DNA of 62,050 bases, counting the filler, from Sphacelaria rigidula (lineage: Eukaryota), in NCBI GenBank assembly GCA_964200075.2. It is 4 parts of 4 records of this genome, joined end to end, with 100 filler letters (N's around TTAATTAATTAA, not from the genome) between each part and the next. Parts side by side here need not be neighbours in the genome. Positions count along the whole stretch, not along the records: positions 46,623 to 62,050 come from CAXNAA020001747.1; 3 more parts are not named here. One strand, 5' to 3'. Below, in pieces: positions 31,601 through 58,039 of the stretch (positions are counted from its first letter, which is position 1; each line of letters begins with the position of its first letter). The notes beneath the pieces were generated by a model. The model made no database searches. It was given only the letters and a program-made list of their open reading frames with translations, and was not told where the DNA came from. The position numbers were made by a program, and so were the translations under genes.

Positions 31601-33043
31601 GACTCTGATGCTGGTGGTATCGGAGTTATTGCTGCTGCTACGGGTGCGGGCGACGCCCTCCAGCCACGATAACTGTCACCCAATCCGGGATACAGAGAGC
31701 GAGAGGGTAGACGAGAGGCAAACAGGGTTTCAAGATGGTGCATACAGCCCGTCAAGTACACAGGATACTGTGTGCAATAGAGTGGAGACAGACGGAAAGG
31801 ATATAAACGATCCCAAACTGTCTCGCGCTTTACTGTATTGTACAACCATTCTGCACTATCGTGGAAAGCCTACAGTAACGTAGTTGAAAAGACGGTTCAC
31901 CCATACAGTACAGTATAGTCAGCGTATGTCAGTGAGGGATGTGACCTGGGTCGCAACTGACAAGCCATCCGAATGACATTTCGACCCAGTTTTCGCAGCG
32001 TGAAGAAGATGTGAAACGAGTGTACGTATATTCTGATAAAACTCGAGAGGTGGGTACAAAGCCTCAGGCGGCGGAAGCGCGATAAAAGACAGCTTCAAAT
32101 GCGAGAGGTCAAACTCGCTCCGAGCGACTAGAGATGACGAAAAAGAGCCAAGCACGCAACCTGCTTTTACGACCCGTCATCACGCACAGGCCAATACCGC
32201 CCCTGCGGAACACATTACATTTTTCATTTGATATTAAAAGGGCTGGGATAGACCGACGTGAGGCAATGTGTCTCTCTCCGTCTGTGTATGTCCTCGGGGC
32301 AAAAACCTCCCACATCAAAGCGCCCAAAGGAGAACTCTCCACCGCACGCAATCAGCACGGCAGACTACTCTAGATAAACCGGTGGGCCGCAAAGCCCCCA
32401 AGAAGTACAACGGAACAACCCTGAACGCGCCAAATTTACCAGAAAACAAGATGTCCAGAGTGATGAAGTGAAGGGCCTGTGGTCTGGCCAAGGTCCAGAG
32501 GGTGGCTCGGCCGGCAATTGTGAGCAACAGGAAGAGAATTCGGACGTGACTGAAAGTACAGTATTCGCACAACAGATGATACCCACCTGTTGCCGCGCGA
32601 CGTCGCGATGAATCCCAGGGCGTGCTGTTTGGCACACCGAACGGGTATCCTTGGGTTCAATCGATCTCTTCTTCTCCCCCTTCTTTCCAATACAGTATTT
32701 GGTGTGGGTGCAGCGTGCCTGCCACGAGGAGTTCCACATAACTCCACGTACGTCTGATGTACTTAATAATGACCGAATCTTTTGTGTACACAGTTACCCA
32801 CCACAGCGATGAAGGAGCTGAAGGGCTATATCAGCGACAGCTAGGTCAACTGCAGTCGAGGGCGGAGTACTAGTATTTCTATCTCGGTTTTCTGTCCGAG
32901 AGATTCGGTGCAGTCAGTTGTTCCCTTGTCTTCATTCAGCGTACTGAGAACAAAGGGTGGGTGTATACCGTCCAACGCAGGCACGAGAGGAAGCAAGAAC
33001 AAACCTGAGAACTCCTATCGCTGCAGCTAACGAGGGACTAATC

Positions 33044-33375
33044 ATGGCGACCACACCACTAGCAACGATCGAAACACAGCATGACGACATGATCCACGAC
33101 ACGCAGCTAGACTACTACGGAAAGCGCCTCGCCACAGCCTCCAGCGACCGCACGATCAGAGTGTTCGAGATTATCGGCGATAATCAGCCCGCACAGAGTC
33201 AAGTCATCCGAGGGCACGAGGGCCCGGTGTGGCAGGTGGCCTGGTCTCATCCAAAGTTCGGCGTGCTGCTGGCGTCTTGCTCCTACGACGGAACAGCGAT
33301 CATTCACCGAGAATCCCCACCCGGGACGTGGAGCACTGTGCATAAGCATGACCGTCACCAGTCAAGCATCAACAG
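33044..33375 (+). CDS. SEC13: SEC13 (COPII coat / nucleoporin WD40 protein) exon 1
   Basis: ATG at 33044; [33 protein letters not shown]...[26 protein letters not shown]; donor AACAG|gtggag, phase 2. Confidence 0.96.
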
Positions 33376-34044
33376 GTGGAGTTTTAGGTGTCTTGATTTC
33401 TGCCAAGTTGGACGATGGTCAAACGCGAAACCGGTCGCATTGACGCGCGATTTGCTCTACCCCGCACGAGTCGATGTTCCTGTAGCTGCGTTTAGTGGGC
33501 TTCAAGAGTCAAAAGTTGAGGAACGTCAATTTGGCGTTGGCTCTCATTCCTTACTTTGACGGTATGTTCCGACTGCATTGATTGAATGAAAGTCTCTTAT
33601 TCTTACTGTATGATCCGCCTGAGAACGAGCTCGGGTTTCCTCAGGCTCTCGCTTTTTATGCGTATTTTACCTGAAAACAAGTTGTGTCTCGTTCAAAAAG
33701 GGTCGTTTTGAAGCGGAAACCCCACCGAGGCGTTTCAATTACTCGGTTTCAGTCTAGAAAACCCGTAAGTCATGCAAATTATATGCGCCCATATGAAGCA
33801 AAAACCTAGATATCCTAACGAATTATTTCTCGACTACACGTCACGTGTACCAATAGATGTCTCTAAACAGCACTATCATCACTGTCAGACTCGAAACTCA
33901 AAATCTGAGTGTCGAGTGTTGTGGCCCGGGCGTTCATGAGGTATACCATGTAACTTGGCTGGACCTCGTCAATCATCACTGTACTTGGCATTATGAACCT
34001 CACTAGCACTTGTTGTCCAACGGTGAGATCTACCATAATTGCCG

Positions 34045-46622: not shown

Positions 46623-48224
46623 CCTCCAGAAAAACTCAGAAAAAAGGACAACTACGAATTCTGAAAACTTCTGACGCTGAGTACTATATACTGAGTATAG
46701 CCGAGAGGGGGTGGTATACACCGTCACTGTACATGTGTCACGATCACAATCACACGGCAGCAATCATGTCTCGAAAGGTGGGTTTTAACCACAGTAGTGA
46801 GGGATAAGTATCGGTTTCTACCTTGAACCGGTGCGGTTTGGCATTATAGATAAAATCAACGACCTATTATGATGCATTGTACCAGCTGTCGCCGCAAATA
46901 CTGCACTATACTGTCCTGTTTGTGTTGCACGGGCAGCATCTGCTAAGAAGAACAAAGCTGCACGAGAAAGAACAAACTGCGAACCCCGACAACAACTGAC
47001 AGGACGACAACTGTTCTTGTTCCCAGGCACCTGCTGCTTCCATAATCACCGACACCCATCTGAGCGAAATGCAGAGCACAAACAAGATTCCTCACATGCA
47101 TCCCTCCCTGGAGAGCCCCATGTGTGTCGCTGCCGCTGGCCAGGCACCCAAATATGTACAGTTCCTTAGTTCCCCTCCTTGAAGTGCAAAGAGGACTACA
47201 ATAGCAGTGAAGAACAACACACTCAGTACAGCAAAGCACAGCACAGACAGTACTGTGCCGTGCAAACCGTACAGTACAATGTCACGATTTTGCACTGCAA
47301 CACGGTAGCGTTGGTTCTCTTAGAAAGTTGAAGTATTGCGTCCGAAAGCTGTACCGTGTCCCACTGGCACAGCTCAAGTAGGGCGTCATGCAGCAATAGT
47401 ACGATTCCGAACAATATGGTGCAGTATGAGATGACTATTACCGGTACATGTTGCGGGTGAAATTCAAAAATTGGGTGTCAGGAGTGACAGCCAAAGACCG
47501 CAGCAGAGGAGCTGGGAAGGGGGGAAGTGCTATGCTACGCGATTACATCGGATGAACTTCTACGCTGTTTCTCGCTGTGCTAGAAGGGGTGCAGATGATT
47601 TCAGCCAGCAGTCGTGAGTTGGCACGGTTGGCTAGTTTAAATTAGCAGTTACAATATCGAGCATGCACACCGGACGCAGTAGGCCCGCCTTATTCGGGTT
47701 TGGTCAGCGCCCGTGGCACGTACAGTACCGCACTGTACCTGGTCAAAAGACGGATACGTTCTAGGCATACTTGCTTCTGATCAGATGAGCCACGAGTGAG
47801 ATGGTTGCAGCAATATATTTCTACTGTCTGCTGTACTACCGTTGAAAACAGTACCTTAGAGTGTGTACTGTGTAGTGTCTTGTGACACTTATTAGTACAA
47901 TAGTGTCGCCAATTCGACGCAGGATTCACTTGGCTTTGCCTTGCCGTCTTAATGAGTTTCCCCCCTTCACTGCAGATACCATCTGTGACGCCTGTCCTGG
48001 CATATCGCAGTAGACCCTCGTTTGCGTGCTTTAGGCCTTGGTTTTGCTTCGTCTAGGCGTGTTTTCTGAAACAGTGCTGCACTCGTGCGCCCCTTCCCTC
48101 GCCAAACGTCCCGGTCAGGGCCGCCGAGACTGTCCGAACAGCCAAGGCATCCGCAGTCCTTGAGAGCACCTCTGGTACTGTCGCCGTTACTGTCCGCGAG
48201 TCGGCAGCTGGGGTCGCTGCTCTA

Positions 48225-48952
48225 ATGCAGAGCTGTCTTCCACATCACCAAGGAAAGGCCAACGCACATCCTCCGGGGGTGAACGGGTGGTGTACTTTCG
48301 ACGCTGGGCTGTCCGAAATCCAAGAGCAGCTCGCAACTCAAAGCGTCCCGACTCACGTTTTTCAAAGGCAGCTGCTCTTGACTTTGCGTAACGAGGACGC
48401 CGTTGTGCAGCAGGCACTGGAGATGAGTGGTTCGGCCACCGCGCAAAGAGGTGGTGATTCGGGGATCCGCTTGAGTGGTCGCATCGACGAATGGCCTTAT
48501 CGTCTCAACGTCATCTGGCGCTTGCACGAGTCTAGTATACTGCCGTTGTGCCGTCTTCTTGAGGCGAATGAGACCTTACCCGCACACTACTTTCTCGGCG
48601 GGGGAAGCTGGAAATCACCTTGCGAGGACTGCACGGATGGTCTAGTTCGTGACATGCGCGCGCTAGCGCTACAAGCTTCTCGGCAGAACCAAAGTGACGG
48701 AAATCAACGGAGCGAACTCAGGCATGATGCCATGGACAGAAAAAACCCCGGCGGGACGGCGGGGCGAGAAGAAGCAGCAACTCTTTTGGCGGATGTAGGA
48801 AGGTATCTTTTCGATCTTTCATATCGCAAGGCTCACGGAGGCAACCCGAACAGCGGCAGCTTGGTTGGTGGAGGATATATTGGGGAAACTCTTTCAAGCA
48901 CGGCCGCACGGAGGGTGCTTGATCGACTGTGTTGTGGCCGGGACATACTCGG
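48225..48952 (+). CDS. FANCA-like gene, 5' coding exon
   Basis: 243-aa ORF; donor GG|gtgaga joins in phase to tgtag|TTTCGGC at 49288. Confidence 0.7.
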
Positions 48953-51900
48953 GTGAGAATCCCTACCTTCGCGACGCCAACATCGATCCGGCCAAGGTTT
49001 TGGTCGTGGCTTCCTCGCTTTGCCTCCAGGCTAGTTTCATCCGTTGCAGGCGTAATTCTTCTTGTGCCACAGACGGGATGTTGTTGCTTAACGGGGCAAT
49101 CGCTGCAGTAGTGCTGACTAAAATACGCTGCACAAGGCTAACATTTCTTGCACCGAGGATAGGAGCGAGTTATTTGAACAGTAGCGACCAGTACGTATAC
49201 TCACGTACTGTTTCTACCTTTGCTCGTGAAGTTTTCGTGCTTTCACTTACGCCTCCTCTCCCTCACCCTTATCGTGCAATACTGTAGTTTCGGCGAGAGC
49301 AGGCTGCAAACCTGTCGTTTGGTTCTTGCTGCGGTACACCCAACGGATACGCCGGCATCCCCGTGCGGGGGGGAATCTCACTGCGAAATGACGAAAGACA
49401 TGCGGTCCTCGAGAGTAGATCCAGTAAATTTTGCCATACCTGGAGGAAAATGGGGGGAAGATGGCATGGGAAATAAATTGGCGACGGACGATCCTATCGA
49501 AGGTTTCCTAGTCCGGCAGCTGCGGCTGCTAATGGAGAGTGCCTCCGGGCGGCATGTCGAGGGCTCATATTTCAGCTACCCACAATGTAAGAAGCCCTTT
49601 CTATCAGGTGGAGTGGCACATGCTCCATCGTTGTCACTGTTGGACTGTTTGCCCCGCGACCCCTTTGTGCGCATCTGATGGTTTTTTGCACTTGCTTGTT
49701 TGAGAGGAGCCGGGCATTCGTCGGCGATGATGTCGTAATAATCTCGTGCTTGATCCTGCAAGATTGCTCCCGACAGGTCAATCATTGTATGCAAGTACCA
49801 CCACTAACAAAGAGGGTATCGCCCGTGAGTATTTTTCAGCTTCTGTTACTCTTTTCCCTTCATCACTGCTCTCGCTCGTCTTGGCGTATTGTGCCATGGC
49901 TGCTTCGTGTAGCTCTTGGCTGCGAAGACGGTCACTCACAAGACACACCAGCAGCTTCCCTCGACAGCTCTTTCAGCGCGCTGGTGGATATCATGCGCCA
50001 CTTTCCATCGCCGATGTTTATTGGAGCCCTACGATCCGTGTGTCTCCAGGCAGTTGCTTCAGCTGCCAATTCTACGGGTTCCTTGCTTTACAAGGTAAGA
50101 TTTTATGTGACCATTTAGTTGGGTGGTGTTTTATTGAGGGACTGGGTGTACAGCGATGGTCCCTTCGTTCTCTTGGCATGCCGTGGGCCGTATTCGACTG
50201 TATCCCAGCCTTTATGCTCGGGGGCTGCTGAATGTGTATGATCATGAGGCTAACGCGTCGTATACCCTTCATAGCCGCGTCCGCATACCCTTCATAGCCG
50301 CGTCCGCATATTTTACTTCTTTCGATTGCCGGTGCTACTGCGATATGTGTCCTCGGGGGCGTCGCGGGTTCCACGGCAATAATCTATCACCTACCCGCCC
50401 CACTCGCGTTACCGTGGGCGTGAACGCATCACTGTTCCTCAGCCTATTCTCCAATGGGAGACCCTTTCACCGATTGTACGTGCCGCAGCCACGGCGCATC
50501 CGCGCGACACGCCGCATGCGATAGCTCTCTTGGGTACAGAGCTCGTTGAAGCTGGATTGAATCTGGCCCCTCCAGAAGATTCCAGCAGAGATCGGGACAT
50601 GGTCTGTGATCGCCGTCAAGGGATACTGGTTCTTGGCTCAGCACTCAGACTTGTTGCTGCAGCAGACGTGTCTTCTCAAGACCCATGTGCTGACGAGCGC
50701 GGGTTCTACCATCAATGGTTTCGGAGCTGTTTTGGAGTTACTGCGCAGGAGACAGGGGAGGAGCAAGCGAGGCTTGGCCCTAAAGGACAGGAGGAGGAGG
50801 GTGTCAACGCGGAAGATGTTGCCCCCGAGGTTTGTCGGATGGAGGTAAGATGCGCATAATTTCTCGGGTTTGATATGTCGGCAAGAGAACTTGTTGGCGA
50901 AGGCAGACTACGTGTGTTGCCCCTCACCGGCGCGCCGGCTGTCGTAAGTATGGCACGAGGATTTTTTTTTTGCATTGGTCATGTTCTCACACTTGCTGAA
51001 TCTATGCCCCGTCGTCTTGAGACAGGTGCTGCGAAAAGCCATGGAGAAGGAGCGCTCATCAGAGATCTTGGTGGAGGCGTTGTGCTCGTCGGTACCGTAC
51101 GACCCAGCCTTCGTACTTGAAGTACACCGAGATGTGCTCAAAACGAGACTGAGGTATGTTCTTCACGTGGAATGGTGGCACACTTTTGTAATGTGTCGTG
51201 AAGCTTGGCTATATATATATATATTGTTTTTAGCCTGTCGGAACGGAAGGCCATATGCTCAGAGTGAATCACGACGCCGCTGCTTGCTCTGAGTTGACCT
51301 AAACTCAGCCGGTGTTGACTGGCCAACGCATCTGTCGTACGCAGTTCGCAAAAATAACGGCCTTCTTACCTTCGACCGTGTGCCACACCTCTTACTGTCC
51401 TTGCGTAGAAACGGTGGCTCATGGCCGTGAGTACGACGATTTTCCAACTTGCACGTATGTATCCTGCTCAGTCGGCCACTGCGCTCCATTCCACAACAGG
51501 GCTAAGTTTTCGGGCCGGGTGAGAGACTTGGTGGACCTCACCATCACCCGTCTCTCGGACCTCAAAGGCAAAGACGAAGCCGACCGACAAAAGGCTGCCG
51601 CAAAGGGGCACCGTGACGGGTCTCGAAACGGTGTCTCTGCAGCGCATCGTGGGAATGGGGATGAAGGCGACTCAACCAACCGAGAGGTAGATTTTGATGT
51701 TCGCTATGTGGTGTACTTGAACAGACTGCGGGCGCTGAGCCCTTCGGCGCTTGACTTATTTCAACACAGGCTGGTTTTGAAAGGTGACTTGGCGTGTCGG
51801 CGTGTCGCCAACGTGGACCTCATCACCAGGCACTACGTGATTGCGCGGTGGCACTGTTGTGACACCGGACTGGGAGCATGTTAGAATTCGTCTCTGCGCT

Positions 51901-54900
51901 CTCGCAGAAACCACTGTAGAAAAGTTTATGGGGTCGTGAATTGCTGCTAAAAACAGAGTTTTCAGTAGTGCTGAAGCTCGCCTACGATGCTCTTCAAAGA
52001 ACGCTTACAATTTATACGGGGTGGCTGGTCGCTTACCGCAGGTCGGATTTTTCTTACGATATTTTCAAAGATCTGGCGAGATACCCCCGGCGCTGAGGAC
52101 TGCTATCCTCTGGCAACCCAAGTCCTGGGCAAAGTTGCGCAAGATACTGCTAGCGCCACCAGGAGAGCGCATCGTCATGCCAGGTCCGTGTGGCCACGAG
52201 GTCCGACAGGCAGCTTTCTGCCGCTGTGAATCTTTCGCGAGGGAGCACGGCTGCGATGTAGGTGTGCCCCTCAATGTGCTTCTGACATCCTCGTTACCTA
52301 CAGACGACCACAAGAAGGTCATGTCTGGGGTGCACAGCTCCCACACAAGGGTTCCTCTCGATGTTTGTTATTCCCTCGTTGTTCACAGACGAAAACGGGA
52401 ACGTGATGCCTGGAACTGGTGACGTGGTGAGAGAGACAATAGGGCACGGCCAGGGCGGCTTGCGTGTGGAAGTATCGCTCAAGTATCGACGGCTGCTTGT
52501 ACAACAACTGGCGAAGGACTCACTTTTGTCGACGAAAGACTATGACGCCTTCAAGTGAGCTCTCGTCGACTACATGCCAAGGACCTGTAGCGCACACTGT
52601 TGCGGCAGACATGCATCTTTGACATTTTGAATGGTAGGTCGGTCGCGTGCGATACTTGTGGCAAAGGTTGTCGTAGCCTGCTCCTCACCGGACCCATGCC
52701 GTCAAGATTCAAGCAGCCTCTCCGCTCGGACATAATTAACCCTTTTTCCCAGGTGTTCTCCGCACCATGCTATATGTAAACGCGAACAAAATGACCGCTT
52801 TTGATCGAAAGCCCCTCCTTATGTGGACCTGATTTTCGTGTATCCTTGCGTCCTGACGTCTATCGTCTGGCAGAAAAGCCTTCACCGAATATCTCCGAGG
52901 TCAGCGGGAAAGAGACGCAGCTCAAAGGTGAGTGGGGAAACGCGACGTTTCGCGATCGACCACAGGAAATTTATCCGAACGGTGATCGTCATTCGTGCCG
53001 AAGAGTGCCAACCGCGTGCGGTGTAGGTTGTGTGTGCTTTCAGGGGAGTGTGCCGTACGCAGTCTTTTCTACGATTCGATCAACTGTGACGCTTCCTCAT
53101 CGTCACTACATCATTACTCCTTTATGTTTGGACAGCGAGGCGCGAGACGAAAGGGATGTCCCGACTGCCGTTCGACAACTTTGGGTGCTGGAGTCGCAGC
53201 TGAAAGGTCGTGACGTGGCAGGCAAGTGCCTGGGTGACCGGCGGGAAGGTGGCCTCTCCGTGCAAGAGCGGTTGGCGTTGGTGTTACAGGTACGGACTTT
53301 TGCTCGTTTTCCTGCCGAATCCTATATAGCAAGCAGCCTAGGACTTTCATGTGCGAGAGGCCTCGCCTCAACAGCTCAAACCCAAGTGGCATAAAATCGA
53401 GTGGGAGTTCAATATGTCGCCTTCATACGTTGCTCCGCATGCCCCACGTACTTTCTCGATTGTGGGTTGCAGGAGTACCTACCGCGGGCATTGATTCTCG
53501 AGCTGGGCATAGAGGATGGCAGCGATAGAAACTGCACACCGCCTACCGAGCAACGTGTTCCATCTTCAGGGAGCGCGGCCCGCAAGAATTCCGATAGCTT
53601 GTCGCCATATCAGGCGTGGTTCGCAAGGGCTGCCTACCTTCTCACGGCTGTTCTTCAAGAGTGGGAGCGGGCCTCGAGAGAGAGGTCAACTTTGTCCCCC
53701 AAAGGTTCTGAGGCACTCAATTCATACGATAAGCCCCCGTCGCCGGAGGAGGTGACAGAGACGATTCTCAATGGTGTCCACTGCTGTGTTGCAGCCATGG
53801 GTACATTATTAGGCGAGGATTGGCGCAATCCGATCGCTGCGTCACATCTAGCAGGTCAAAATAGCGCGACCACACCGTGCGATTCACGTGAAGAGCGAGA
53901 ACGACGTAGTGGCCGAGAAGGGAGCGATGAACAATTCTCGCCGGGAAACTCGTCGACGTCCGTTGTTCTTGATCGTGGTTTGCAGGCGTTTCGTTTGATT
54001 GGAGAAATTGTGTCGACCGTGGCCGGCGTGGAAACCATAGCCGAGGCGCTGGCTCGAAGAGCATTCTCCTTGCTAGGCAACCCGAGCAGGTATCAACAAA
54101 CTCTGTGTTTCGCAAGTGCCCATACTCGCGTGCTGATATGGCACGTGCTGAAAATTGACATCCAGTACGACACGTCACTACGTGGTGGGCCGCAGGAAGT
54201 CCCCCTATCTTTGCTCGACCCGCCTCGAGAGGATGGTCCTGTTCATGTGTAATTTTCACTCCCGAGAAGCGCAGACATCACCCATTCGATTCCATTGCTT
54301 ATGCCTGTCTCTGGTGTTGCCGCCCTGCCCGAGCAGACTGGACTCAAGGCAAATGTTGTCTCTGGCTCACATCGTCGCCAGCCTACCGCCCAGCTTTCAC
54401 TCAAGAGTGGAGTTACTTATGGAGAAGCTGGTGACGAAAGCTCTGGCGCACAGTCCTGGAGCAACATCACTGCAGAGCCCACGGCGGAGAGGAGACAACG
54501 ACAAGCTCCTGGCGACAGCTCACCTTGGAGCCCTGTACCTCAAATCCGTCCTTATCCTACATAGCCGTATCATCACTCGTGCGACGGACGAAACCTACCA
54601 TGCGACGTCGGAGGATGGTCAACGTGAAGCGATGAACAACGAAACTGGCGAATGTAGCTACACTCCAACGGTTCTGGGCCGGGAGACGACGGGCTGTACG
54701 CCCGCTGTCCTGCTGGATTTCTTGTGGTGGATGGAGCGGCGACTGCGTGTTGCGCAGGTGACATGTGTAGAACAGACATGCTCACCCGACGCGCATGCCC
54801 GGCCTGTCTATTTGTCGTTGCGGCAGCTTCTTGGAAGCGTGATGGAGCATCCGCTAGTTGAAGGGTCGTACAAAACTGCGGTTAGCGCGGCGAGGATCGC

Positions 54901-57289
54901 GATGCCCACCGTGGAACGCCTGCTCGCCATAGAGACCGCCGCCTCTGATGGGGGTTTATTTGAACCAGCCACAACGTTGGCTTTCCTGGAAAGCGTCACG
55001 CTCGGTCGGCTGTTAGAAGTGGCAGCCAAGGGCTGTGAAGATGGCGGCCGTGAAGATGTCGATGCTACGGCGATGCTCGGGTCAACAAGTACAAATTTGA
55101 CCACCTTGGGACGACCAGGCCCTGAAGCTGAAGCAAGCAGCCTTCTCGTGGAAGTGAGTAAAGTGTGGGGAGCATGTGTGAAGTGTTTATTTGAAGAGCC
55201 CCGCCTTCTTTGCGCTGCGTACAGGAGAGTTTTACGTCAGAGTTTTTGCCCTCATGCTTTCGGTGATCTCCGAAGTGGACAGAATCATGGAGGTGGGTAT
55301 GATGCCGATGGTCAAGGAGGGAAAGGAGCCGACTACCGTTGGGTGAATGATGTGCACCCTGCATGGAGGGAGGGTGGGGGGGACAGTACGCGACTTGGCG
55401 GCCAGGAGGAGCTGGGAAATCAACAGCTTCTCGACGCTATATTGCACGTTTTGAGGAAATTATGCGATTTGCAGGCGGTGTCCGACTTGACAGGACGAAG
55501 GAAGAAGGGATCCGCGTCTCTGAACGTAAAAGCCAACACGAGTGAAGCGGCGGCTGAGATTGGCAGAAGAAAGGCTGCAGTTTTCTTACAAGCTGCGCTG
55601 TCCTTGGCCAAAGAGACCCAAGCAATCAACACAGGTACAGAGGCGTCGGCACTTGTCCTAGTCGCTGAAATAGCGATACCAGCGATTGGCGCCACGGAAG
55701 GTCGGGAAGCAGCGACTACAGCTTTTCGACGTCTGTGGCAAGAATATTTTTGCCATTTTCGCCCCTTGGGGCCTGCGGCAGTTGCTAGCTTGTCGCGAAT
55801 AGCGTTCATGTGGTGCGAAGAGCCACACAACACTGAGGGTGGCGCTTGTGAGGGGAACAGTTATCCTGGAGTGGAATTACTTGAGGGTCTCCCGTTCTTG
55901 GCTGTTGAGATGGCTAGAGTATGGCCGAGACTCGCTGGTTTCCCATCTATGCTCTGCGTTCCTGGGAACGCGTTGGGCTGGTATGCCCCTCATGGCTGTG
56001 CTCTCTACCTCTCTTCTCTACATCGTGTAGGCAGAGAGTTTGTTCATAATATAGCAGACGGAAGTCTGCAACGTTCAGGGACCGGGAGCGGATCATGGAT
56101 CGGCGAGGTACTCTTGTCATCGACAGCCTCCGAACGAGCGACCGCCAGTAAGCCGTCGAACGGTAGCGCGAGTGTCAGGGGAGATGGTCGCATCCCTCTG
56201 GAGCCGTTGCAAAATGGAAGTTACGACACCAAAAAAAAGCAAGAGTCGAAGTCACAAGGTGGGCGCGACTGCCAAGCAGGAGAAAGTCAAGGGGATGACG
56301 AGCGAGTCACAGAAGGTGCAATGACAGCTCCTCATGATCGGCGTCGCGAAGCAGCTGCGGTAATGCCCCACGCCTGCGCAGAGCTTGCGCTTGATGTCAT
56401 CGATGCCGCGGCTACGATTTTGACCATCACGAGCAGGAAACGACCGCGCGAGGCACGGCATGCGAAGACAGTGCCAGATAAAAGAGCCAAATCGGAGGTA
56501 GACGCAAATCGGGCAGGTCTCGAATGCGCTGTCAAGTGTGGCAACAACACCCCCGGTGCCGTTTGTACGGGTACCAACAGCGGCATCTCCGCGTTGGAGC
56601 CATCTCGAGGCGACGCGATTTTCTGCCCGCCATCTTCTGCCGCCTGGACTAGTCAACTTCTCAAACCGCTGTATGGGTCAGTCGATGAGCAGGTACCTTT
56701 GGTGCGTTCTCCTCTTGGAATCCTTCTCGTTGCGCTCATCAAATCTCTGGGAAATCGAAATACTCGCAACGTTGACCCTGTTGGTGACGGTGAAGCAAGC
56801 AGTGTCGGGCTTCGCAACGACGACTGTGAGGAAACAGCCCACATGTGGGCAGTGTCACTTGTTGTGGCAATCCTCGGGTTTGTGCCGTCACTTTTTCTTC
56901 GCTTTCTAGAGGCTCCGTGCCTCCAACCGACGGCAGCTGCACCGCGTGCGGAGTGGAGTATGGGGCGTTCACTCGCCGTGTTGGAGTGCTTGAGGCTAGT
57001 TCACAAGGAGAAAGTGGTTTTTGCCTCGGTACGACGTAAAATTGGCACAGAAGCGTGGCTAACTGGCGTATTGTCTCACTACAGTGTCGTGTGGCACAGC
57101 ATATCTGACACACGCAGTGATGCTACGGAGGCAGACTTGGCGTTGAAGCCAAAAGTTCGACACGTTTGGGAGGAGGTCGTTGCGTTTGTCCACAAGCAAC
57201 TGGGGGACGTTCCTCCCAAGGAGGTTCGGCGAATTCCTGTCGCAATTATGCTTCAGGATGTTGATCCTTTGCTGAAGCAATATTTTTGA
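48225..57289 (+). CDS. FANCA: Multi-exon FANCA-like protein (Fanconi anaemia group A), ~11 exons, about 2000 aa
   Basis: Exons: 48225-48952 (start uncertain), 49288-49586, ~49840-50094 (frame/junctions uncertain), ~50488-50844, 51026-51153, 51500-51686, 52042-52183, 52389-52554, 53136-53289, 53473-54089, 54337-57289. GT-AG junctions from 50844 onward all keep phase. The spliced core has five collinear FANCA-like motifs (see findings). Confidence 0.75.
53473..54089 (+). CDS. FANCA-like gene, penultimate exon
   Basis: Acceptor ttgcag|GAGTAC in phase with the donor at 53289; donor AG|gtatca. Confidence 0.8.
54337..57289 (+). CDS. FANCA-like gene, ~2.95-kb terminal exon (helical, Leu/Ala-rich)
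   Basis: Part of the 1044-codon ORF 54155-57289; acceptor gagcag|ACTG is in phase 2 with the previous donor; TGA stop. Confidence 0.88.
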
Positions 57290-57576
57290 AGCCTACCCAT
57301 CTGCGCAGTATCCGAACATGTCTCTTGTCCAATTGTTGGCTGTCGGCACTGTGTTGTGAATGGCACCACACCTCAAAGCACGAGTCTTTATGCAGCAAAT
57401 TTCACTCAAATGCGAAGTGACCCCTCGTTGGTACTCACGCGGTCTTGGCGCACGAGTGAGACCATTCATTCTGTGGATATCACCTCAGATGGAGGGTAAA
57501 TCGCCACAAGTGTCCGTCGAGATCTCATCACCATTTTTTCACGTTGGCGACACCATTGAGATGACTGCATGCTTGA

Positions 57577-57910
57577 GCCGGTCGCCCCGGTGGCTCAGTT
57601 GGTCACCTCGAAACCCTCTGACTGTTGGGTCGTGGGTTCGAATCTCGGAGCGATCTGGGATTTTCTCTCACACCATGCCCAACAGTGAAGAGCGACTATG
57701 TCGTGGGTACACAAAAATCGTCTCAACGGTCGACGAGGGAAAGAGACCGATGTATCCCTTTCGCAATGAACAATAAAGGCAAGCCCCGCAAAAGGAAGGT
57801 GGAGTACTAGAAACAAACTCGAAAAAACTACTGTTAACTTTCCTCCTGTGTGACCCCGGCTGGTGCGCCCACATATATATACCGAAAGGTCTATACCGGC
57901 GTCCAGAGGA
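57577..57910 (+). mobile_element. tRNA-derived SINE-like element, family A
   Basis: Pol III A-box TGGCTCAGTTGG (57591) and B-box GGTTCGAATC (57635); head repeated at 61486-61623 (-) and body at 59290-59505 (-). Confidence 0.8.
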
Positions 57911-58039
57911 GATGGGACGACAACACACACACACGCTTGATGCGCGAAAGGTCCCGAGTTCGTATCTCAGCCCCGATTAATGCGACAAGAAGAAAATCCC
58001 TCAGGAAGATTCATGAGGCGGGGGTGATGATGTTGGTCA

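What the first reader, a model, noticed from the sequence alone, without database searches (positions are those of the whole stretch)
48225..57289. A FANCA-like Fanconi anaemia core-complex gene in a probable brown alga
Seen in sequence: splicing five small exons in phase gives FYHQWFRSCFG ... ILVEALCSSVPYDPAFVLEVH ... KFSGRVRDLVDLTITRLSDLK ... EVGFFLRYFQRSGEIPPALRTAILWQPKSWAKLRKILLAP ... RRLLVQQLAKDSLLSTKDYDAF. Recalled from memory, human FANCA has in the same order SYADWFKASFG ... [21 protein letters not shown] ... [21 protein letters not shown] ... [41 protein letters not shown] ... [22 protein letters not shown]. FANCA is usually described as an animal (largely vertebrate-studied) core-complex subunit that yeast, fly, worm and Arabidopsis lack. 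Inference: an intron-rich stramenopile orthologue would point to a much older, fuller FA core complex for interstrand-crosslink repair with widespread loss. The motifs are split over exons, so ORF-level annotation would miss them. I cannot check whether databases already annotate such homologues.
Basis: partly seen in the sequence, partly recalled or inferred. Interest (0 to 1): 0.85.

Follow-up and report, generated by a model that had tools for sequence, protein, structure and literature searches.

The report
Brown-alga helical gene, FANCA link unproven
A real, spliced brown-alga gene encodes a very large helical-repeat protein seen so far only in brown algae; its proposed kinship with the human DNA-repair protein FANCA could not be shown by any test available here and remains an open possibility.

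Summary
Spliced contigs from three runs give 12 GT..AG introns. The 13 exons, window 47552-57289 (+), join into one open frame of 2059 codons.

The protein is collinear over its whole length with gene models from Ectocarpus and Ascophyllum, at 40-41% identity overall and 52-55% across exons 5-9. It is all-helical, and its last 324 residues fold as a HEAT-like repeat.

The FANCA reading found no support in any test I could run:
- Pfam: 0 Fanconi families in 86 scans.
- Solved-structure sequences: 0 FANCA hits in 9 searches.
- A search of 1.84 billion proteins returned only brown-alga-type exon fragments.
- Two feature look-ups and four fold searches did not list FANCA.

These tests are weak against five short, gapped motifs. 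I could not fold the motif region or compare it profile-to-profile. The resemblance rests on recalled human sequence.

Verdict: a real, conserved solenoid gene. FANCA homology is open, at about 0.4.

The parts
47552..47613 (+). Exon 1, with the start codon ATG at 47552
   Evidence: Spliced contigs cover 47500-47613 and join to 48119. This is the first ATG of the open spliced frame. The Ectocarpus model P0010 starts at the homologous position.
48119..48952 (+). Exon 2 (N-terminal region, residues 21-298)
   Evidence: GT..AG joints on both sides. Sixteen orthologous ORF fragments align with it in A7.
49288..49586 (+). Exon 3
   Evidence: Joints; frame.
49913..50094 (+). Exon 4
   Evidence: Joints; frame.
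50443..50844 (+).
   Evidence: Joints. In A6 (15 orthologous fragments) the invariant columns include Y89, W92, C96 and G98, which lie in the peptide.
51026..51153 (+).
   Evidence: Joints. A14 invariant columns are S22 V23 P24 D26 V30 L31 H34 D36 V37 L38 R41 L42.
51500..51686 (+).
   Evidence: Joints. A4 invariant columns are F3 S4 R8 D9 L13 T16 R17 D20 E62.
52042..52183 (+).
   Evidence: Joints. A13 has 21 invariant columns among 6 sequences.
52389..52554 (+).
   Evidence: Joints. A12 invariant columns include K31 Y32 R33 R34 L35 L36 V37 Q38.
52874..52927 (+). Exon 10 (18 codons)
   Evidence: Joints.
53136..53289 (+). Exon 11
   Evidence: Joints.
53473..54089 (+). Exon 12
   Evidence: The 5' joint is. 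The 3' joint comes from adjacent contig coordinates (table 8) and GT..AG at a shift of +9. Eighteen orthologous fragments align in A8.
54337..57289 (+). Exon 13 (983 codons plus the stop at 57287-57289). It holds helical blocks, long disordered linkers and a C-terminal HEAT-like domain. Contigs run on to at least 57379 as 3' UTR.
   Evidence: Twenty-two homologues align in A11. Models.
56438..56491 (+). Two basic clusters (KR, a 12-residue spacer, then KRAK) in a disordered linker. It resembles a bipartite nuclear-import signal; that reading is inference.
   Evidence: Sequence. The A1 consensus keeps RKR...KRAK, with R699 and K712 invariant. The stretch has low pLDDT in the model. The signal pattern itself is recalled textbook knowledge.

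Best explanation
Window 47552-57289 (+) is one expressed gene of 13 exons. Its 2059-residue product is an all-helical, HEAT-like repeat (solenoid) protein with long disordered linkers and no recognisable enzymatic domain. It is conserved from end to end in brown algae. As far as sequence searches can see, it forms a family of its own.

It most likely works as a non-catalytic scaffold. The best-conserved middle block (residues 460-800, exons 5-9) and the C-terminal helical domain would serve as binding surfaces. A conserved pair of basic clusters in a disordered linker suggests import into the nucleus.

Shown: the gene, its splicing, its conservation and its helical-repeat nature. Inferred: the scaffold role and the nuclear location. 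On this reading the likeness to FANCA is the general likeness of helical repeats, or rests on imperfect recall, and is not descent.
For: - Gene and splicing: 12 GT..AG joints in contigs of 3 of 3 'RNA?' runs and in 0 of 1 DNA run, giving an open 2059-codon frame.
- Conservation: collinear with P0010, P0011 and P0143. Identity is 40.5, 40.8 and 39.6% overall, 52-55% for residues 460-800, and 34-36% for exon 13.
- Restricted range: phmmer of the Ectocarpus orthologue (residues 1-1195) against 1.84 billion representatives gave 133 hits at E <= 0.001. One is a near full-length model, 12 are exon-13-type ORFs of 825-1022 aa, and 120 are ORFs of 54-318 aa. All but three of those I mapped cover a single exon. 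The lowest identity is 33%, and there is no weak tail of distant proteins.
- No known family: 0 Fanconi families, and 0 families of any kind below E 0.04, in 86 Pfam scans.
Against: - A family confined to brown algae, yet with a 340-residue block at 52-55% identity between distant orders, is what a fast-evolving but ancient protein would also look like.
Chance resemblance would not favour those columns.
- Every negative test was weak for short gapped motifs. The motif region was never folded or compared profile-to-profile.
Confidence: 0.5

Rival explanations
1. It is a very divergent orthologue of FANCA, the arc-shaped solenoid of the FANCA-FANCG-FAAP20 module of the Fanconi anaemia core complex. 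Exons 5-9 would correspond to the helical and arcN subdomains. Exons 10-13 would be an arcC expanded by disordered insertions. It would act as a nuclear scaffold for repair of DNA interstrand crosslinks.
For: - Architecture fits: a long all-helical HEAT-like protein. FANCA's C-terminal domain is described as an arc-shaped solenoid of 14 HEAT repeats, with arcN at residues 631-900 in Xenopus (PMC7102982, passages read).
Their algal halves sit on columns that are invariant or nearly invariant among brown algae.
Further collinear matches seem to exist in exons 5, 11, 12/13 and the C-terminal domain. This is a lead, not a test.
- A conserved basic pair resembling a nuclear-import signal fits a nuclear role.
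Against: - 0 Fanconi families in 86 Pfam scans, including three full-length orthologues at E <= 10.
- 0 FANCA among the 6 hits of 9 searches of solved-structure sequences. These used one whole protein, seven exon profiles and one C-terminal profile.
- No FANCA-like protein among the 133 hits in 1.84 billion proteins.
Confidence: 0.4
2. It belongs to another known family of large solenoid proteins, such as a MEI1/PRD1-type meiotic protein or an Integrator, Mediator or Urb2-type subunit, diverged beyond sequence detection.
For: - The feature look-ups list MEI1_N/TPR_PRD1, INTS2, Med23, Urb2, Epg5 and others at 0.85-0.88.
Against: - All feature scores are under 0.9, the range the tool says shuffled proteins often reach. 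In one search only 2 of the ten best hits share a family or clan.
- None of these Pfam families was hit in 86 scans.
Confidence: 0.08
3. It is a decaying or non-functional locus whose long frame persists by chance.
For: None beyond the low-complexity linkers in exon 13.
Against: - The 2059-codon frame stays open across 12 spliced junctions.
- Spliced contigs occur in three runs.
- It is conserved at the protein level across Ectocarpus and Ascophyllum, with invariant blocks.
Confidence: 0.02

Closest known systems
FANCA (Fanconi anaemia group A protein; Pfam Fanconi_A_N PF15865, Fanconi_A PF03511)
   Same: - It is a long, all-helical, HEAT-like solenoid without a catalytic domain (PMC7102982 passages).
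Their algal halves lie on columns conserved among brown algae.
   Different: - No Pfam, solved-structure-sequence, feature or fold search returned FANCA.
- It is about 600 residues longer than human FANCA, whose length of 1455 aa I give from recall. The excess sits mostly in disordered linkers of exon 13.
- No partner genes could be looked for.
HEAT/TOG-type helical repeats and the MED23 C-terminal domain
   Same: The model of the last 324 residues aligns with the following:
MEI1/PRD1, Integrator, Mediator and Urb2 solenoid subunits (protein-language-model neighbours)
   Same: They are the nearest named clusters by features, at 0.85-0.88. All are large helical-repeat scaffolds.
   Different: The scores are below the tool's 0.9 lead threshold, the families disagree with one another, and no Pfam model of any of them is hit.

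Membership tests
FANCA | A match to the Pfam FANCA models (Fanconi_A_N PF15865, Fanconi_A PF03511, and any other FANCA model in the copy) | tested here: not met
   There were 0 Fanconi families in 86 scans:
- 9 window ORF pieces at E <= 1.
- 5 of the 9 first homologues at E <= 1.
- Full-length P0010, P0011 and P0143 at E <= 10.
- 17, 16 and 36 exon-level sequences at E <= 10.

HMMER's filters hide matches above about E 0.1-0.25, so a very weak match could go unseen.
FANCA | Significant sequence or profile similarity to solved FANCA chains | tested here: inconclusive
   Nine searches returned 6 hits in all, every one at E >= 0.39 and none FANCA. I could not confirm that the file holds FANCA chains. 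The tool did find human SEC13 from a window exon, which served as a working control. By my estimate, short gapped motifs fall below HMMER's filters.
   No FANCA sequence could be obtained. The tool's MAFFT could not place exon fragments on the long orthologues, so no multi-exon profile could be built. Recall is the only basis.
FANCA | An arc-shaped HEAT-repeat solenoid C-terminal domain (PMC7102982) | tested here: inconclusive
- Whole exon 13: mean pLDDT 39.2, too poor to judge.
FANCA | Binding of FANCG and FAAP20, homodimerisation, and a role in FANCD2/FANCI monoubiquitination | not tested
FANCA | Co-occurrence with other Fanconi core genes in the same genome | not testable with these tools
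   No whole genome is held for this window. The scan has no earlier notes on this genome.
Alpha-solenoid (HEAT/ARM-like) repeat proteins | Stacked helix-turn-helix repeats with no other fold element | tested here: met

The most novel reading that the evidence does not exclude
The gene is a true, highly diverged FANCA orthologue. If so, the FANCA scaffold, and by implication the FANCA-FANCG-FAAP20 module of the Fanconi core complex, predates the split between opisthokonts and stramenopiles. It would then have been lost or diverged beyond recognition many times, rather than arising near the animals.
Probability: 0.4. Interest if true: 0.65.

Novelty: new member of a known kind. Interest (0 to 1): 0.4.

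Why it matters
If the FANCA reading is right, the origin of this core-complex subunit moves much deeper in eukaryote history. The papers I read place Fanconi_A_N at Choanozoa (PMC6792448) and FANCA in early-diverging fungi (PMC11061109). Brown algae, with Ectocarpus as a genetic model, would then become a non-opisthokont system for studying the Fanconi core complex.

If it is wrong, the locus is still a cleanly defined, expressed gene conserved across brown-alga orders. It encodes a 2000-residue scaffold of unknown role that public gene models leave unnamed.

It is also a worked example of a gene whose best-conserved part is split over five small exons, so that ORF-based catalogues hold it only as fragments.

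Tried and rejected
- **Whole-genome search for Fanconi families.** No genome is held.
- **Full-length models via exons 1-2.** A 'longer' search found none. Searching with exon 13 instead found P0010 and P0011.
- **Sequencing runs.** No RNA holder is listed on record. X1-X4 are RNA only by the tool's guess. I rely on their spliced contigs, which come from a single study.
- **Multi-exon profile or alignment for the motif region.**
  - The tool's MAFFT scattered exon fragments along the long orthologue.
  - In A5 it stacked the exon-7 motif on the similar exon-6 motif.
  - My own MAFFT runs failed for multi-exon sets too. They succeeded only for exons 6+7, and I could not hand that alignment to any tool.
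  - As a result the motif region was never folded, nor searched as one profile.
- **Structure of the whole of exon 13.** Mean pLDDT was 39.2, so its Foldseek and VIA lists mean nothing.
- **C-terminal model.** FANCA is not among the 50 rows shown by Foldseek or by the VIA wide search. This is no evidence that the folds differ.
- **Feature look-ups.** FANCA is not among the rows shown for the whole protein or for residues 400-800. All scores are under 0.9.
- **Profile libraries on the script machine.** None found.
- **Earlier scan notes.** None.
- **Neighbouring ORFs.** 10 of the 18 other long frames (of 24 frames of at least 170 aa in the window, 6 in this gene) gave 0 Pfam families at E <= 0.001.
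I did not send them to any tool, so they remain unchecked.
- **Complex prediction.** Not used, because no partner was in hand.
- **Supplementary files.** Closed. The FANCA alignment and subdomain tables of PMC7102982 (its Supplementary Figure S3) could have allowed a residue-level check.
Full report
**Observation.** The region runs at 53-56% G+C against 45-54% around it.

A search for public runs found eight that hold the stretch. Four small ones hold 63-65% of its words, and the tool only guesses that they are RNA. Three others hold 95-100%.

I laid X1, X2, X3 and the DNA-like X5 on 47500-58000.
- X5 covers the stretch with one unbroken contig.
- X1-X3 each give contigs that skip the same intervals.
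- Eleven joints are listed with GT..AG ends and are absent from X5.
- The twelfth (54089/54337) follows from adjacent record coordinates in table 8. It is GT..AG after a 9-base shift that a repeated 9-mer permits.
- All three runs belong to one study, so this is a single source.

**Gene model.** Joining the exons by coordinates gives a 6180-base coding sequence of 2059 codons. It runs from ATG 47552 to the stop at 57287-57289, through 13 exons and 12 introns of 181-505 bases. The five peptides are found letter for letter at residues 547, 607, 638, 698 and 779.

The coding region begins one exon upstream, and the Ectocarpus model P0010 starts at the matching position.

**Relatives.**
- Exon 13 found 9 proteins at E <= 0.001 among 7999 scored candidates of similar length. 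One is named, from Ectocarpus fasciculatus.
- Among longer proteins it found two near full-length models, from Ectocarpus sp. 6 (P0010, 1896 aa) and sp. 4 (P0011, 1887 aa).
- A cluster look-up of 10 of the 12 long exon-13-type hits added a 1961-aa model from Ascophyllum nodosum, P0143.
- The spliced window protein is collinear with all three. Overall identity is 40.5, 40.8 and 39.6%. It is 52-55% in residues 460-800 (exons 5-9) and 34-36% in exon 13.

**Range of the family.** I ran phmmer with residues 1-1195 of P0010 against 1.84 billion representatives. It gave 133 proteins at E <= 0.001:
- P0011, the near full-length model.
- 12 exon-13-type ORFs of 825-1022 aa.
- 120 ORFs of 54-318 aa.

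By my mapping, each short ORF covers one exon, except three that read through an intron. Identities run from 33 to 96%. There is no tail of weak, distant hits, and nothing of FANCA's size from other lineages.

**Tests of the FANCA reading by sequence.**
- Pfam gave no Fanconi family in 86 scans. These were 9 window pieces, 5 of the 9 first homologues, the three full-length orthologues at E <= 10, and 69 exon-level sequences.
- Nine searches of the sequences of solved structures used the following queries: P0010 whole, a profile of exon 13, and profiles of exon 2, exon 5, exon 6, exon 7, exon 8, exon 9 and exon 12.
- Together they returned six hits, all at E 0.39 or worse and none FANCA.
- The same tool found human SEC13 at E 6e-43 from another exon of the window, so it works on window exons and holds human chains. 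I could not confirm that it holds FANCA.

**Power of these tests.** This part is my estimate, not a measurement. The claimed likeness is five blocks of 11-40 residues at roughly one third identity, separated by linkers of unequal length. HMMER reports a target only if its Forward score passes P < 1e-5. One such block cannot reach that. Exon-level profiles see only one block each. In a whole-protein query the larger search space and the gap costs use up the gain.

A joint profile of exons 5-9 was the test I needed, and I could not build it.

**Tests by features and fold.**
- The protein-language-model look-up listed only assorted solenoid families at 0.85-0.88, both for the whole protein and for residues 400-800.
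- AlphaFold2 on exon 13 with 11 sequences gave helices only but a mean pLDDT of 39.2. The searches made with that model mean nothing.
- With 23 sequences the last 324 residues gave mean pLDDT 70.4 and pTM 0.69.
- For that model Foldseek found nothing at E <= 0.001.

**What speaks for FANCA.**
- The architecture fits. Passages of PMC7102982 describe FANCA's C-terminal domain as an arc-shaped solenoid of 14 HEAT repeats. In Xenopus it has a helical subdomain (530-619), arcN (631-900) and arcC (901-1402).
- The algal halves of the five matches sit on the most conserved columns of the brown-alga alignments.
- From my own recall of vertebrate FANCA, the matches look right and seem to continue, in order, in exons 5, 11, 12/13 and the C-terminal domain.

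**Mechanism.** The tool-supported part is a large, non-catalytic helical-repeat scaffold. Its conserved middle block and C-terminal HEAT-like domain are linked by disordered, charged stretches. One linker carries a conserved basic pair that fits the textbook bipartite nuclear-import pattern (the pattern is recalled). That it binds partners, and that it is nuclear, are inferences.

**Literature.**
- Searches for FANCA with stramenopiles (2 papers, neither on such a homologue) and for Fanconi with brown algae (11 papers, none relevant by title or abstract) found no report. Two broader searches also found none.
- Passages of PMC6792448 date Fanconi_A_N to Choanozoa.
- Passages of PMC11061109 report FANCA among genes predicted and expressed in Mucoromycotina.
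- Passages of PMC10085685 list the core subunits and deal with FANCC/E/F in plants.
- I read no whole paper and no supplements.

**Verdict.**
- The taxon and the splicing are supported.
- The FANCA homology is neither shown nor excluded. I put it at about 0.4, against about 0.5 for a solenoid family with no demonstrable kinship to FANCA.

Noticed in passing
window 33059-33376 (+), within the open frame 32948-33559: This is an exon of a SEC13 homologue (a WD40 protein of COPII coats and the nuclear pore). It matches solved SEC13 chains at E 2.6e-43 to 1e-37, over residues 5-108 of the human protein.
   Followed up: partly
window 57328-58000: Directly after the gene's 3' end, the summed contig depth jumps from about 30-70 to thousands and hundreds of thousands in all four runs. 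There are many loose ends and odd joints there. It looks like a high-copy repeat.
   Followed up: no
window 51026-51153 and 51500-51686 (exons 6 and 7): The tool's MAFFT stacked the conserved exon-7 motif on the conserved exon-6 motif. The two share an F-x-[VL]-x-V-[HR]-x-D-x-[LV]-x-x-R-L-like pattern. They may be successive repeats of one helical unit.
   Followed up: no
P0011 (Ectocarpus sp. 4 model), at the junction homologous to window exon 7/8: This model carries 11 extra residues between the exon-7 and exon-8 homologues. P0010 and the contig-supported window splice both lack them. The likely cause is a mis-called splice site in that gene model.
   Followed up: no
window 50254-50310 (intron 4): A 23-base tandem repeat of 2.5 copies with 94% matches.
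   Followed up: no
window 47614-48118: The longest intron of the gene (505 bases) separates a 62-base first coding exon from exon 2. ORF-based gene callers would miss the true start.
   Followed up: yes
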